A stretch of 64,000 bases of DNA, from the NCBI GenBank assembly GCA_009914755.4, contig CP068257.2, forward strand, positions 23,872,001 through 23,936,000. The letters are read 5' to 3'. The stretch's first letter is position 1. Each line of letters opens with the position of its first letter. Positions 1 to 64,000 of this stretch are shown here, piece after piece. The DNA comes from the human T2T-CHM13v2.0 reference genome, Homo sapiens. A model generated the notes under the pieces. The model worked only from the letters and a program-made list of their open reading frames with translations. It did not search any database and had not been told where the DNA came from. The position numbers and the translations under genes were made by a program.

Positions 1-320
1 ATTCTAGTGCTTTGTCTGATACAAGATAAGTGTTCTGACAAATTTTTGTGGCATGAAAAAATTGAAAGGCCAAAACAATAAAATCTAGGTCTTTTCAAAA
101 AATTCATTCTTGTATTCCAATTTTCATTTTCGTCACAAAAATGAGTGTTTTGGGCTACCATGTATATTCTCCTTAAAAGTTAATTTATACTGGCTCTTAT
201 ACTTTTTTTCCCAGCAAAAAGATTACAAATATTTTCTGACCTATGTTTTTAGCTTAAAACATAGGTAAACTATACATTATGTCATATATGCATGTGCATA
301 TAAATATATACACACACTAT

Positions 321-932
321 GTCAGTCAAGGTCCTCCAAAGAAACAGAACCAATAGAATGGATGGATGGATGGATGGATGGATGGATGGATGGATGGATG
401 GATGGAGACAGATAAAATATCACGAATTGGTTTACATGATTATGGAAGCTGAGAAGTCCCACAATTTGCCATCTATCAGATAGACAGGAAAACCAATGGT
501 GTCGTTCCAGTCTAAGTCTGAAGGCTTGAGAACAGGGAGCACCAATGGTGTAAGTTTTCATCAAAGTTCAAAAGTCTTAAAACCAGAGAGACAACAGTAT
601 AAGTTAAAGTTCAAGTACAAAAGCCTGGGAACCAGGAGCACCAAAGATGTAAGTCTCAGTTCAAGCGTGAGAAGACAGATGTCCCAACACAAACAGGCAG
701 GCAGGAAAGGGATGAATCTTCCCTTCCTCCACTTTTTGTTCTATTCAGGCCCTCAACAGATTGAATGAGTCCACCCATATTGGAGAAAGCAATCTTCTTT
801 ACTCAGTCTACCTATTCAAATGCTAATCTCTTCTAGAGACACCCTCATAGACACACACAGAAATAATGTTTAACCAAATATCTGGGCACACTGTGGTCTA
901 GTCAAGTTGACACATAAAAATAATCATCACAC
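321..932 (-). mobile_element. Solo LTR of an ERVL/MaLR-like family (family name not resolved); minus orientation
   Basis: TG...CA termini. Reverse complement of the LTR copies at 15478-16035 and 19930-20487 (shared blocks such as gtcaagttgacacataaaattaaccatcaca, cctattggttctgtttctctggag). (GGAT)n embedded. Confidence 0.5.
357..407. repeat. (GGAT)n tetranucleotide microsatellite, about 12 units
   Basis: Direct read: gatggatggatgg... Produces the repetitive peptide ORF at 322-564. Confidence 0.95.
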
Positions 933-1309
933 ACATACATATTTATTTTTAGTGATCTTTATTTGTACTAATGTGTTTTGATTCTAGATTCATGGAATGC
1001 TCTCACTCTCATTTCTGAAGATTCAATGAGCAAGAGATTTCTGGATTCATCTGGCTGAGTGAAACTATACTACCGATTCTTTTAATGCCATGTGAATTAA
1101 AGCACATACACTTGAAAATAACAAAATTAATTAACCAGTGGTACTCAAAAAGGGCATAGACTATACTTATTTCACATACTTATTTTCCCAATAAAGATGG
1201 CCAAGAAGTAGAAGAATCTGAAGCAGACTCAGGCACTGTAGCATGGTGACACTTCATATCCAGATCACAAACTAGTTAGTCATCAAAATCATGACTATAT
1301 CAATACCTC

Positions 1310-1990
1310 CATATGTCAGTTTTCTATTGTTGCCATAACAAATTACTGCAAATTGAGCTCCTTTAAACAACTTCAATGTATTATCTCATAGTTCTGTGGG
1401 TCAGAAGTCTGGTGAATTCAGCTGGTTCCTCTGGTCCAGGTTTCACAGACTGAAATCAAATTGCTGGCAAACTGGACTCTTATCTGAAGGCTCTGAGGGA
1501 TAACTCATTCAAGTTGTTGGAAGAATTCAGTTTTCATGACTGCAAGGCTAAGGATCATATTTCCTGGCTAGCTGTTAGCCAGGAGCCTCCCTCAGCCTCT
1601 TAAGGCTGTGCAAATTCCTCATCATGCTGCTCCCTCCAACATCAAACCAGAAAGTTCCCATTGAGTCCCTGTACTTTGAATTGTTCTCGCTGCTGCTGCT
1701 GCTGCTGCATCTCTTCTGCCTCCAGTTGGAGAAAGCTCTCTGCTTTGAAGGCTTTATGTAATTAGATTGGGCCTACTTGGATAATCCAGAATAATCTCCT
1801 CATTATATGGTCAGTAACTTTAATTACATCTGCAAAGTCCCCTTTGCCAACTAACATAACATATTCACAGGTTGCAGGGATTAGGGCATAGACAGCTCTC
1901 GGAGAGAAGTCTGGGGAGGGAACATGCTGCCTACCACATCCCACATCTAAAAGGAAATACATACAGGGGGTGGCAGTATCACCTTTCCTC
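1310..1990 (+). mobile_element. Ancient LTR-like interspersed repeat (family unresolved) with internal (CTG)6
   Basis: Motifs shared with copies at 14745-15200, 44375-44880, 45290-45720 (ccataacaaa ttac...aaactg..ttaaacaac; ctgcaaagtccc...cacaggt...ggg). (CTG)6 at about 1689-1707. Confidence 0.4.
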
Positions 1991-2599
1991 TCTTCTGACT
2001 CAGGAATACCGCAAATGGTATCTAGAGAGAAACTGGCAAAAAATTGGAAATCAAGAATGGAACTCAATCTTTTTGAAAATACTTAGAAACTGTCTCAAGA
2101 TAATTTTTAAATCATTTATTCTATCTTATGATAATTTAAAATAACAACTTAATAACAGTGAAGATAATAAAAATATTTATTGAGAACCAGATGGGCCAGA
2201 TTGACTGTGCTAAATTCTGTTCAGTATATCATTTATCATAATTAATAAACACAACCACACACACACATCTATTTCTGTACCTCCTGCTCTGTTTTTTTTA
2301 GGCTGACTGCATATTACTAGATCAGAAATACATTGTTTTATTACTATTACTTTGAAATATATTTTAACACCAAGAAACGTAAGTCTTATTTCTAAACACC
2401 CTTCATTCCACACACACAAACACACATATTCCTCTTCTATTTAAATTTATATTAGCTATTCTCACTCATTAAATTTTTATAATGGAATTTAGGTACATAT
2501 AATTGAATTAATCATAATCCTCAGTCAATAATTATTGGAATAGAACTATTTTACCTTATTTATTTAGCGTTAATGAATAAATAAAATTAAAACTATTTA

Positions 2600-2740
2600 A
2601 AAAGTAACTATGGAAGGTGATGGATATGTAAATTTGTTTGACTATAGTAATCATTTTAATACATATATGTATATCAAAATATGGTGTACACCTTAAATAT
2701 ATACTTTATAGTATTTATTTTAAGATAATTTAAAAATAAT
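2600..2740 (+). mobile_element. L1 extreme 3'-UTR tail fragment
   Basis: Resembles the L1M 3' tail (...gtacaccttaaatatatac...ttttaa), as at 28600-28890 and 56340-56465. Confidence 0.4.
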
Positions 2741-61614: not shown

Positions 61615-61770
61615 ATGAAGCTTTGGAAAGTTACTTAATCTTCCTCTAAGCCTCAATTTCTTCATCAATAAAATGATGAATATATTTCATATTTCATAAG
61701 ATGTAGGCTTAAATGAAATCATGCATGTGAAAAGCACAATGTCTATTATGCATTAAGTGTTAAACACAAA
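61615..61770 (+). mobile_element. MIR SINE fragment
   Basis: gaaagttacttaatcttcctctaagcctcaatttcttcatcaataaaatgatgaat...ggcttaaatgaaatcatgcatgtgaaaagcacaatgtctattatgcattaagtgttaaaca. Confidence 0.5.
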
Positions 61771-62059
61771 CTTTCAAACTTTTACATTTCAGTCATTTAA
61801 ATCAAATGATCTACCATAGCAGATCTCCCCAAAGACACTCTAGCTCCAAACTAACTATAATCAATCCCGTGGTGACGACCCAAAGAACCAGGGTTCCTGG
61901 GTTTTCTCTCACGCCCAGCCCACCTAGGCTTCTGACTGCCTATCTCCTCATCTTAGAGGGATTCCTCCTGACCAGTCATTACAAAAATTCTTGGAGCATG
62001 AGCAAGACTGAGTCTGTGTTTGGATTGGAGGAAGGGGTAAGTAACAAGGTATATATATG

Positions 62060-62095
62060 TATATGTGTGTGTGTGTGTGTGTGTGCGCGCGCGTT
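62060..62095. repeat. (TA)n/(GT)n/(GC)n compound microsatellite
   Basis: atatatatgtatatgtgtgtgtgtgtgtgtgtgcgcgcgcgtttgtgtt. Confidence 0.9.
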
Positions 62096-62617
62096 TGTGT
62101 TTAAGTTACAAACTAAGGATGGTTTTAAAAAATTGCAAAATGTTAAGAGATTTATCTAGGATCTGACCCACTTCCCCAGAAATTTACGGAATTCAAGACC
62201 AAGCCTTTCGTATTCACTGTCATCAGTTAGATGGACCCAGTAGCTAAAAAATTAAGGAGAAAAAAAATAGAGGAATATGAGGGAAAAAGTCAAGTCAGAG
62301 GACTGAAGAATATATACAGAAGATAGAATATTAGAAATTTTCTGAAAATAGATGATAGCAAATACCTCAAGAAAGTGAGGAAACGTGAAAAGGGAGCTTA
62401 AAGAAAAATAATAGAGTCCATACATGGGACACAAGCACAAAAAGCTGACTGAGCATGTGGTTCTCTACTAATAATAACTGGAAAACAGTGAAACCAGCAG
62501 GAAAAACTTGCACATAAGAGTTTAACTTTCCACTTTGGGTTTCAAATTCTCCCATAGCAATAAGAGTAAGTGAAATAATGTTCACATAAGGATTTTTTTT
62601 TTTCTATTACTGTAGTG

Positions 62618-62950
62618 TTTTGTTTTGTTTTGTTTTGGTTTTGGTTTTTGGTGGTTTTTTTTTTTTGAGACAAAGTCTCGCTCTTGTCCCCCAGTCTGGA
62701 GTGCAATGTCATGATCTTGGCTCACTGCAACCTCCGCCTCCCGGGTTCAAGTGATTCTCCTGCCTCAGCCTCCCAAGTGGCTGGGATTACAGGTGCGTAC
62801 CACCACGCCCAGCTAATTTTTTGTATTTTAAGCAGAGACGGGGTTTCACCATGTTGGCCAGGCTGGTCTCGAACTCCTGACCTCAGGTGATCCATCCATC
62901 TCAGCCTCCCAAAGTGCTGGGATTACAGGTGTGAGCCACCGCACCCGGCC
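62618..62950 (-). mobile_element. Alu SINE (minus) preceded by (TTTTG)n, about 62618-62654
   Basis: gttttgttttgttttgg... poly-T then gagacaaagtctcgctcttgtcccccagtctggagtgcaatgtcatgatcttggctcactgcaacctccgcctcccgg...gggattacaggtgtgagccaccgcacccggcc. Confidence 0.95.
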
Positions 62951-64000
62951 TGTTACTGTAGTGTTTTAACAAATCTAAGTGTAATAGTATTAGTCTTCAT
63001 TCATCTAAGACATACAAGTACTGGAATTTTTTAGGTGGGTTCCTCAAATGTCATCACAGTGGTGTCTTCTCTACATTCAGTCACTCTTCCGCCCTTCTCT
63101 GTAATGCTCAGGGATTTCCCAGTTCACTAGCACTTAACATAGTATGTCCTTACTTACTTTGGGGTATAAATGACTGCAATAGAAGAAGTGATATCCTTGA
63201 GGGATGAAACACGATCTTGCATATTCATATCCCTTTCAAATGTTTACTGACTTAATCACACCATTAGTTTTCTAAGTCCAAGTCTAAAAACAGAAATGAG
63301 TTTAAATACAGTGAACATTTCATTTTCACTATACCACTAAGCTGAAAGAAATGATTTTTGGTAAATAAAAGTTCATCACAGTGAAAAGTTCTACATATAA
63401 CTGAAGATCAAAGGATTCTCACCTGGGAAGCTTGTCAAGATGCATGTTCCCAAGCTCCCAGGCTCCCACTCCCAGAGATTCTAATACTGTAATGGAGCTG
63501 AGGACACTACATTTTTAACAGGCTGACCAGGTAGTTCAGATTCAGGTGGTTCCTAAACCAACTCTGAGGAAGTAGTGGTTTTATATACGATGCTACTGTT
63601 GATGTGGCTACTAGGAATGGTGCTCAGCAGAAATCCTGCAACATATGGATCTGTTTACACACTATTCACTGTGTAATGAGAGTCTGCAACATAGGCTAAG
63701 TGATAAGAGATGTCTTGTGGTTGACCTCTCTGGAGATAAGCAGCAATGAAATTCCAATGAAGTTTCATCATCTCTCATCACCAAAACCATCCTAACCACC
63801 TCAATAAAATACACCTGACTTCCCCCGCTCCCCCGACCCACCACCCCAAAACCAGCTGCCCTATGTTCTACCAAAAGCTGCAACCAACCAATGACCTGAT
63901 ACTAACCCCAATCTATCAGCTGCTGCCTAGTGCAACAGAGAGGGAAAGTCAATGAGAAGGAATTGGGTGCCAGTTCTTGCTTTGCAAGGAGTGGGTTGAC

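What the first reader, a model, noticed from the sequence alone, without database searches (positions are those of the whole stretch)
1..64000. Window is human TE-rich genomic DNA at the MIR155HG locus, not a microbial element; no undescribed system found
There are at least 14 canonical Alu elements, several L1s with recognisable ORF2p peptides, MaLR LTRs, MIRs and MADE1 MITEs. There is one CpG island with a TATA/AP-1 promoter, GT-AG introns and exact miR-155. Gene-sized prokaryotic ORFs, Shine-Dalgarno-spaced operons, CRISPR repeats and tRNA-adjacent integrase islands are all absent. The six-frame ORFs of 60-176 aa are Alu/L1 read-throughs or chance ORFs.
Basis: partly seen in the sequence, partly recalled or inferred. 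Interest (0 to 1): 0.5.

Follow-up and report, generated by a model that had tools for sequence, protein, structure and literature searches.

The report
Human MIR155HG locus, repeat-rich, ordinary
The window is ordinary, already fully described human chromosome 21 DNA: the miR-155 host gene (MIR155HG/BIC), about 47.7 kb of transposon-rich sequence upstream of it and about 3 kb downstream, with nothing microbial or new in it.

Summary
The window contains an exact human-type miR-155 hairpin (Rfam mir-155, 90 bits, 59556-59620 +). It holds the three MIR155HG/BIC exons with GT-AG introns. It also holds the published BIC promoter: an AP-1 site, a TATA box and two NF-kB sites inside the only real CpG island. 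About 20 published human primers and oligo segments match exactly, at the published spacing. Four HindIII sites fall within 3 bp of published hg19 chr21 coordinates. This places the window at about hg19 chr21:26,886,737-26,950,736, + strand.

The rest is primate repeat DNA: 13 Alu elements (not "at least 14"), five L1 fragments, two MADE1 copies, five MIR fragments and four MaLR-type LTRs. Two L1 peptides match solved human LINE-1 ORF2p at E 1e-54 and 6e-34. Identified repeats cover at least 27% of the window.

Whole-window CpG observed/expected is 0.18. There is no ORF of 200 aa or more, no tRNA and no CRISPR-like array. The ten longest ORFs have no Pfam hit. Megablast found nothing in plasmids or phages.

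Verdict: already known. Human versus another great ape could not be formally separated without a reference genome. The fragment-length agreement favours human.

The parts
59556..59620 (+). pre-miR-155 hairpin (5p 59559-59582, 3p 59598-59619), inside exon 3
   Evidence: Rfam RF00731, 90.1 bits, E 8e-19. Mature human sequences match exactly and the mouse variant is absent. Fold -42.7 kcal/mol, z -7.4.
47301..48100 (.). CpG island over the MIR155HG promoter, exon 1 and the start of intron 1
   Evidence: 200-bp windows have GC 0.51-0.73 and CpG o/e 0.76-1.03. There are 73 CpG in kb 48, against 0-22 per kb in every other kilobase.
47661..47683 (+). Core promoter: AP-1 site TGAGTCA (47661-47667) and TATA box TATAAAA (47677-47683)
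   Evidence: Sequence read directly. The Gatto et al. AP-1 mutagenesis oligos flank exactly this heptamer (PMC2582607).
46550..46558 (+). NF-kB site 1 (GGGATTTCC) of the BIC promoter
   Evidence: Flanked exactly by the Gatto et al. NF-kB1 mutagenesis oligos (PMC2582607).
46048..46056 (+). NF-kB site 2 (GGGAAATTC) of the BIC promoter
   Evidence: Flanked exactly by the two halves of the Gatto et al. NF-kB2 forward oligo.
47722..47833 (+). MIR155HG exon 1. The start follows the hg19 +1 used by Wood et al. A TATA-based start would be about 47705.
   Evidence: The -616 end of the Wood et al. construct maps to 47106-47108. The donor GTACGC starts at 47834.
55415..55499 (+). MIR155HG exon 2 (85 nt)
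   Evidence: An 85-nt exon sequence recalled from the BIC cDNA matches exactly. The published qPCR forward primer matches 55444-55467. Acceptor ...CCCCAG and donor GTAAGG are present.
59469..60740 (+). MIR155HG exon 3, with AATAAA at 60712-60717. The 3' end is approximate.
   Evidence: Acceptor TTGCAG ends at 59468. The qPCR reverse primer matches 59490-59516. The poly(A) signal is at 60712. The spliced length of about 1.46 kb fits the known BIC RNA of about 1.5 kb (own knowledge).
55482..59504 (+). Short ORF across the exon 2/3 junction that encodes [17 protein letters not shown] (17 aa). The coding bases are 55482-55499 and 59469-59504.
   Evidence: Translation of the spliced exons. The same peptide is reported as translated from MIR155HG in bioRxiv 10.1101/2025.07.31.667903.
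4100..11660 (+). Near-full-length ancient L1: 5' UTR, ORF1 from about 6098 to 6862, ORF2 7319-11245. It is interrupted by MADE1 (8832-8926) and an Alu (9277-9555). The outer ends are approximate.
   Evidence: tblastn with recalled ORF1p/ORF2p gives 30-49% identity over ORF2p residues 1-1215. The PDB LINE-1 endonuclease matches at E 5.7e-34.
16328..18160 (-). Younger (primate-type) L1 3' fragment, ORF2p residues about 985-1275
   Evidence: tblastn gives 53-82% identity. PDB LINE-1 ORF2p 8sxt matches at E 1.4e-54.
40876..42320 (+). L1 3' fragment (ORF2p residues about 990-1274), abutting the Alu at 42342
   Evidence: tblastn, E down to 4e-39.
22725..22982 (-). L1 ORF1p-like fragment
   Evidence: tblastn, 38% identity, E 1.2e-7.
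27101..27316 (+). L1 ORF2p-like fragment
   Evidence: tblastn, 40% identity, E 5e-10.
9277..9555 (+). Alu
11669..11958 (-). Alu
12502..12772 (+). Alu
18739..19028 (+). Alu, with the target-site duplication aaagaatttga
23099..23294 (-). Alu with an internal deletion
30678..30963 (-). Alu
34286..34574 (+). Alu (old, 73% identical to AluY)
37908..38203 (+). Alu (old, 71% identical to AluY)
42342..42614 (+). Alu
44974..45267 (-). Alu
56591..56880 (-). Alu in MIR155HG intron 2
61074..61362 (+). Alu
62660..62950 (-). Alu. Its left monomer is the Rfam Metazoa_SRP hit at gathering score.
8832..8926 (.). MADE1 MITE (palindromic), inserted in the L1
   Evidence: Recalled MADE1 consensus, 87% identity. 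Rfam mir-548 gives 79 bits on one strand and 73 on the other.
27775..27821 (.). Partial MADE1
   Evidence: Rfam mir-548, 45 bits.
29004..31768 (-). MaLR-type element with an LTR at each end (29004-29409 and 31378-31768, 79% identical)
35341..37541 (-). Second MaLR-type LTR pair (35341-35756 and 37118-37541)
46226..46424 (-). MIR SINE fragment. Others lie at 50417-50449, 51572-51734, 52219-52427 and 60389-60451.
   Evidence: Recalled MIR consensus, 68-88% identity, E 1e-6 to 9e-24.

Best explanation
The window is a stretch of the human genome, about hg19 chr21:26,886,737-26,950,736 on the + strand. By my recollection of the liftover offset this is roughly GRCh38 chr21:25.514-25.578 Mb.

It holds about 47.7 kb of intergenic DNA made largely of decayed retrotransposons and DNA-transposon relics. 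After that comes the complete three-exon MIR155HG (BIC) gene of about 13 kb, then about 3.3 kb of downstream sequence.

How the gene works is established knowledge. RNA polymerase II starts at a TATA-containing promoter inside a CpG island, driven by AP-1 and NF-kB. The primary transcript is spliced at two GT-AG introns and polyadenylated after an AATAAA signal. Drosha and Dicer then cut the exon 3 hairpin to give miR-155-5p and miR-155-3p. A 17-codon ORF spans the exon 2/3 junction.

Shown here: the sequence features, their coordinates and their match to published reagents and coordinates. Taken from the literature: transcription, processing and regulation. The window holds no microbial gene system.
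For: - miR-155 hairpin at 90 bits, with exact human mature strands.
- Exons and splice sites.
- AP-1 site, TATA box and CpG island.
- 114 nt of Wood et al. primers and 247 nt of Gatto et al. oligo segments match exactly at the right spacing. The E1, E2 and trough primers are absent, as the fitted coordinates predict.
- HindIII sites at 39701, 52840, 59137 and 61618 compare with published hg19 bait ends that map to 39701, 52841, 59138 and 61616. No extra site lies inside either fragment.
- 13 Alu elements with poly-A tails and target-site duplications.
- L1 peptides match solved human LINE-1 ORF2p.
- Whole-window CpG o/e is 0.176.
- There is no ORF of 200 aa or more, no tRNA and no Pfam hit, and no plasmid or phage match over the whole window.
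Against: - No reference-genome alignment could be run, so the chromosome coordinates rest on one paper's hg19 numbers plus my recalled MIR155 coordinate.
- The second HindIII fragment is 2,481 bp here against 2,478 quoted. The start of the promoter construct maps 1-2 bp off.
- One published 43-mer (NF-kB2 reverse) does not match as a contiguous sequence.
They are queries, not curated references.
Confidence: 0.96

Rival explanations
1. The window is the orthologous MIR155HG locus of a non-human great ape (chimpanzee, bonobo or gorilla), not human.
For: Every test used, including short primers, the mature miRNA and repeat families, would also mostly pass in a genome about 1-2% diverged. No Alu here is young enough to be human-specific: identity to AluY is 71-87%.
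Against: About 360 nt of human-designed oligos match with no mismatch. At about 1.2% divergence roughly 4 mismatches would be expected. A 13.1-kb HindIII fragment agrees with hg19 to within 1 bp and a 2.5-kb one to within 3 bp. Ape orthologues usually differ by several indels over that length; this last point is inference from general knowledge.
Confidence: 0.03
2. The window carries a microbial or viral element, or an undescribed gene system, hidden among the repeats.
For: ORFs of 100 aa or more are more numerous than in mononucleotide shuffles: 24 against 4.4 +/- 2.1. The longest is 176 aa.
Against: The excess ORFs lie in Alu, L1, MaLR and CpG-island sequence, which is GC-rich or formerly coding. 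None reaches 200 aa. The ten longest have no Pfam hit. There is no tRNA and no CRISPR-like array. Megablast found nothing in plasmids or phages for any part of the window. CpG o/e of 0.18 is typical of methylated vertebrate DNA.
Confidence: 0.01

Closest known systems
Human MIR155HG / BIC (B-cell integration cluster) gene with MIR155, chr21q21.3
   Same: The window has three exons with miR-155 in exon 3, a TATA/AP-1 promoter in a CpG island and NF-kB sites about 1.15 and 1.65 kb upstream. Published primers, promoter-fragment lengths and HindIII fragment coordinates all fit.
   Different: Nothing of substance differs. There are 1-3 bp coordinate discrepancies against the quoted hg19 numbers, and one published oligo does not match contiguously.
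Rfam mir-155 family (RF00731)
   Same: Full-length match to model positions 1-65 at 90.1 bits against a gathering score of 56, with a canonical hairpin.
   Different: None. The 5p strand carries the human/primate C at position 12, not the mouse U.
Primate and mammalian interspersed repeats: Alu, L1, MIR, MADE1 (Tc1/mariner MITE), ERVL-MaLR LTRs
   Same: Alus are dimeric 7SL-derived elements with A-tails and target-site duplications. L1 fragments carry ORF1p and ORF2p remnants. MADE1 is a palindrome of about 80 bp that also scores with the mir-548 model. The MaLR-type LTRs are paired copies of about 420 bp.
   Different: All copies are decayed: Alus are 71-87% identical to AluY and L1 peptides 30-82% identical to L1HS proteins. 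None looks active. Subfamilies were not assigned because no RepeatMasker or Dfam library was available.

Membership tests
mir-155 microRNA precursor (Rfam RF00731) | Covariance-model score at or above the curated gathering score | tested here: met
   90.1 bits against 56, E 8e-19, model positions 1-65 of 65.
mir-155 microRNA precursor (Rfam RF00731) | Mature 5p and 3p sequences identical to hsa-miR-155, on opposite arms of a stable hairpin | tested here: met
   Exact matches at 59559-59582 and 59598-59619. MFE -42.7 kcal/mol, z -7.4. The mature sequences were typed from my own knowledge of miRBase.
Human MIR155HG / BIC gene | Three exons joined by GT-AG introns, with miR-155 in exon 3 and a poly(A) signal at the end | tested here: met
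   Exon 2 is exact. Donors are GTACGC and GTAAGG; acceptors are CCCCAG and TTGCAG. AATAAA is at 60712.
Human MIR155HG / BIC gene | Published locus-specific primers and promoter oligos match at the published spacing | tested here: met
   The four Wood et al. primers and one vector-junction segment match. Twelve of 13 Gatto et al. segments match, and the -1783, -1380 and -1065 primers all point to one +1 at about 47770.
Human MIR155HG / BIC gene | Genome position chr21q21.3, + strand | tested here: inconclusive
   Four HindIII sites and the promoter-construct end fit the hg19 chr21 coordinates given in 10.1101/311886 within 3 bp. No alignment to a reference genome was possible.
CpG island (Gardiner-Garden and Frommer criteria) | At least 200 bp with GC of at least 50% and CpG o/e of at least 0.6 | tested here: met
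   In 47301-48100, GC is 0.51-0.73 and o/e 0.76-1.03.
Alu SINE | Dimer of about 280-300 bp made of two 7SL-derived monomers, with a 3' A-tail and target-site duplications | tested here: met
   13 copies by three methods. Flanks show A/T runs and duplications such as aaagaatttga at 18739/19029.
LINE-1 | Sequence that encodes ORF1p and ORF2p (endonuclease, reverse transcriptase and C-terminal domain) | tested here: met
   PDB LINE-1 ORF2p matches at E 1.4e-54 and 5.7e-34. tblastn covers ORF2p residues 1-1215 in 7319-11245.
MADE1 MITE / mir-548 family | Palindromic element of about 80 bp matching the MADE1 consensus; for mir-548, a score at or above the Rfam gathering score | tested here: inconclusive
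   87% identical to a recalled MADE1 consensus, with hits on both strands. Rfam mir-548 gives 79.4 bits, below its gathering score of 90. This is a MADE1 copy but not a called mir-548 gene.
ERVL-MaLR LTR elements | LTRs of about 350-450 bp with TG...CA ends, matching MST/THE1/MLT1 consensus and flanking an internal region of about 1.5-2 kb | tested here: inconclusive
   Four LTR copies are 72-79% identical to each other, in two pairs 2.37 and 1.78 kb apart. No curated library was available.
Prokaryotic or phage gene island (the scan's default expectation) | Dense gene-sized ORFs, tRNA or integrase landmarks, CRISPR arrays, similarity to microbial records | tested here: not met
   No ORF of 200 aa or more. 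0 tRNA. No spaced repeat array. No Pfam hit in the ten longest ORFs. No plasmid or phage match.

The most novel reading that the evidence does not exclude
The evidence does not exclude an undescribed functional element somewhere in the window. Three candidates can be named. One is a regulatory module in the 47.7-kb upstream stretch, which begins about 1.5 kb downstream of the published E1 enhancer. The second is the set of three tandem 310-360 bp units in the 5' UTR of the old L1 at 4531-5480, which might act as promoter monomers. The third is the 176-aa ORF antisense to the promoter CpG island (47058-47588), which might be translated. I found no positive evidence for any of these.
Probability: 0.03. 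Interest if true: 0.25.

Novelty: already known. Interest (0 to 1): 0.04.

Why it matters
It matters only as quality control. A window in a scan aimed at microbial novelty is human host DNA and should be set aside. MIR155HG and miR-155 are among the best-studied immune and oncogenic non-coding RNA genes. Nothing found here adds to what is published about them.

Tried and rejected
- A literature search for MIR155HG + promoter + AP-1 + TATA returned only irrelevant reviews.
- A full-text search for a recalled BIC primer found no paper. The primer itself matches the window.
- The Gatto et al. NF-kB2 reverse 43-mer has no match even with 3 mismatches. It proved to be a composite of two window segments 94 bp apart, 45912-45928 and 46023-46048. 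I treat this as an oligo or printing oddity, not as evidence against the locus. The paper's own -1783 primer lies inside the 'missing' 94 bp.
- I looked for a 14th Alu with an nhmmer profile built from the window's Alus, and found none at E <= 1.
- I asked whether the excess of ORFs of 100 aa or more over shuffles points to genes. I rejected this because the ORFs lie in transposons or the CpG island and have no Pfam hits.
- Megablast against plasmids and phages over the whole window found nothing.
- No ORF justified them.

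
Full report
**Observation**

The window has 38.7% G+C. Its CpG observed/expected ratio is 0.176, with 423 CpG in 64 kb. This is the depletion typical of methylated vertebrate DNA.

Rfam at gathering thresholds gives two hits. One is mir-155 at 59556-59620 on the + strand, at 90.1 bits against a gathering score of 56, E 8e-19, over the full model. The other is a Metazoa_SRP hit at 62833-62949, which is the left monomer of an Alu.

hsa-miR-155-5p and -3p, typed from my knowledge of miRBase, match exactly at 59559-59582 and 59598-59619. 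The mouse 5p variant, with U at position 12, is absent. The hairpin with its flanks folds at -42.7 kcal/mol, z = -7.4 against 200 shuffles.

**The gene**

Around 47.6-47.85 kb the sequence reads ggttaTGAGTCAcaagtgagtTATAAAAgggtcgc..., followed by a G+C-rich exon that ends ...CACTGCAG|GTACGC.

- AP-1 heptamer: 47661-47667. TATA box: 47677-47683.
- CpG island: the only one that is not an Alu spans about 47301-48100. GC reaches 0.73 and o/e 1.03. There are 73 CpG in that kilobase, against 0-22 in every other kilobase.
- Exon 2: an 85-nt sequence that I recalled from the BIC cDNA matches exactly at 55415-55499.
- Exon 3: it starts at 59469, after ...ctcttgcag.
- Introns: both are GT-AG, with donors GTACGC and GTAAGG and acceptors CCCCAG and TTGCAG.
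- Poly(A) signal: the only AATAAA or ATTAAA between 59470 and 61000 is at 60712.
- Spliced length: about 1.46 kb.

Splicing exon 2 to exon 3 creates the ORF [17 protein letters not shown]. A 2025 preprint reports exactly this peptide as translated from MIR155HG in activated human T cells (10.1101/2025.07.31.667903).

**Locus identity, tested against published reagents**

No reference genome can be searched with these tools, so I used papers.

Wood et al. (bioRxiv 10.1101/311886) list ChIP primers for the miR-155HG promoter and qPCR primers for BIC.

- All four match exactly: 47588-47609, 47647-47666, 55444-55467 in exon 2, and 59490-59516 in exon 3.
- Their primers for enhancers E1 and E2 and for the trough between them do not match.
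- This absence is expected. With the offset 26,886,736 (hg19 position minus window position), E1 lies 1.5-2.2 kb before window base 1, and the trough and E2 lie further upstream of E1.
- The same paper quotes two HindIII capture baits, chr21:26926437-26939577 and 26945874-26948352. These map to window positions 39701, 52841, 59138 and 61616. AAGCTT sites occur at 39701, 52840, 59137 and 61618, and none lies inside either fragment.
- The -616 end of their promoter construct maps to 47106, and the matching primer segment starts at 47108.

Gatto et al. (PMC2582607) cloned the human BIC promoter.

- Their primers labelled -1783, -1380 and -1065 sit at 45987, 46390 and 46705. All three imply the same '+1' at about 47770, where their reverse primer lies (47751-47768).
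- Their mutagenesis oligos bracket the AP-1 heptamer, NF-kB site 1 (GGGATTTCC, 46550-46558) and NF-kB site 2 (GGGAAATTC, 46048-46056).
- They cite Yin et al. for an AP-1 element 40 nt upstream of the start site and an NF-kB site at -1150. This fits a start near 47705, about 28 nt after the TATA box.

In total about 360 nt of human-designed oligonucleotide matches without a mismatch.

The window is therefore about hg19 chr21:26,886,737-26,950,736, + strand. The hg38 equivalent, about 25.514-25.578 Mb, rests on my recollection of the liftover offset.

**The repeats**

Alu. A recalled AluY consensus finds 13 elements: twelve full-length dimers and one with an internal deletion at 23099-23294.

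- The sub-threshold Rfam Metazoa_SRP hits fall on the same 13.
- An nhmmer profile built from the window's own Alus finds no other copy at E <= 1.
- A-tails and target-site duplications are visible, for example aaagaatttga on both sides of 18739-19028.
- Identity to AluY is 71-87%, so these are old subfamilies.

L1. tblastn with recalled ORF1p and ORF2p sequences gives five fragments.

- A near-full-length ancient copy has ORF1 at 6098-6862 and ORF2 residues 1-1215 at 7319-11245, at 30-49% identity. It is interrupted by a MADE1 and an Alu.
- A younger 3' fragment lies on the minus strand at 16328-18160, with up to 82% identity.
- The other fragments are at 22725-22982, 27101-27316 and 40876-42320.
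- Independently of my memory, translated window pieces match solved human LINE-1 ORF2p (8sxt, E 1.4e-54) and the LINE-1 endonuclease (8sp5, E 5.7e-34).

MADE1. Copies lie at 8832-8926 and 27775-27821. Both also score with the MADE1-derived Rfam mir-548 model, below its gathering score.

MIR. Five fragments match a recalled consensus.

MaLR. Four LTR copies of about 410-430 bp lie on the minus strand: 29004-29409, 31378-31768, 35341-35756 and 37118-37541. They are 72-79% identical to each other, form two LTR-internal-LTR units, and partly match recalled MST/THE1 consensus sequences.

Coverage. The repeats I could identify cover at least 27.4% of the window. Alu alone covers 5.6%.

**Absence of microbial features**

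- The longest ORF is 176 aa and none reaches 200 aa.
- ORFs of 100 aa or more are commoner than in mononucleotide shuffles (24 against 4.4 +/- 2.1). They lie in Alu, L1, MaLR or CpG-island sequence. The ten longest have no Pfam match at E <= 0.01.
- ARAGORN finds no tRNA.
- Tandem Repeats Finder finds only microsatellites and two-copy duplications.
- The direct-repeat families are all Alu, LTR or L1.
- Megablast of the whole window, in three overlapping pieces, finds nothing in 72,556 plasmids or 50,697 phage records.

**Mechanism**

This part comes from established knowledge and was not tested here. Pol II starts at the AP-1- and NF-kB-responsive TATA promoter. The BIC transcript is spliced and polyadenylated. 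Drosha/DGCR8 and Dicer release miR-155 from exon 3. A fraction of the spliced RNA is translated into the 17-aa peptide.

**Limits**

- Human cannot be formally separated from another great ape.
- The exact oligo matches and the agreement of a 13.1-kb fragment with hg19 to within 1 bp favour human. I put the ape alternative at about 3%.
- Repeat subfamilies were not assigned.

**Verdict**

The locus is already known and fully annotated, and there is nothing novel in it. Interest is very low.

Noticed in passing
window 4531-5480: Three tandem units of about 310-360 bp (64-79% identical) lie in what appears to be the 5' UTR of the near-full-length ancient L1, just upstream of its ORF1. They resemble the promoter monomers known from mouse L1. 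I did not check whether this is a feature of the L1 subfamily consensus.
   Followed up: partly
window 60907-61002: A 48-bp unit is duplicated in tandem with one mismatch (97% match, TRF score 185). It lies about 170 bp downstream of the MIR155HG poly(A) site.
   Followed up: no
window 45912-45928 and 46023-46048: The 'NF-kB2 reverse' mutagenesis oligo printed in Gatto et al. 2008 (PMC2582607) joins two window segments that lie 94 bp apart. It has no contiguous match. The paper's own -1783 primer lies inside the skipped 94 bp, so this looks like an oligo-design or printing oddity.
   Followed up: partly
window 59137-61618: This HindIII fragment is 2,481 bp here against 2,478 bp quoted for hg19 in Wood et al. 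The promoter-construct start also maps 1-2 bp off. The cause may be coordinate conventions or a small indel between this sequence and hg19.
   Followed up: no
window 55482-55499 + 59469-59504 (spliced): A 17-codon ORF, [17 protein letters not shown], spans the exon 2/3 junction of MIR155HG. A 2025 preprint reports this peptide as translated in activated T cells.
   Followed up: yes
window 358-406, 20368-20433, 32925-32971: Perfect or near-perfect microsatellites: (ATGG)12, (AATG)8 followed by (AC)17, and (AC)23. They are likely polymorphic in the population.
   Followed up: no
window 47058-47588 (-): The longest ORF of the window (176 aa) runs antisense through the MIR155HG promoter, overlapping the 5' part of the CpG island. 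It has no Pfam hit. It is most simply a by-product of stop-poor, relatively G+C-rich sequence.
   Followed up: partly
window 8830-8928: The MADE1 copy inside the old L1 scores 79 bits on one strand and 73 on the other with Rfam mir-548, below the gathering score of 90. It carries an internal 15-bp duplication. It is a hairpin-forming MITE and not a called miRNA gene.
   Followed up: partly
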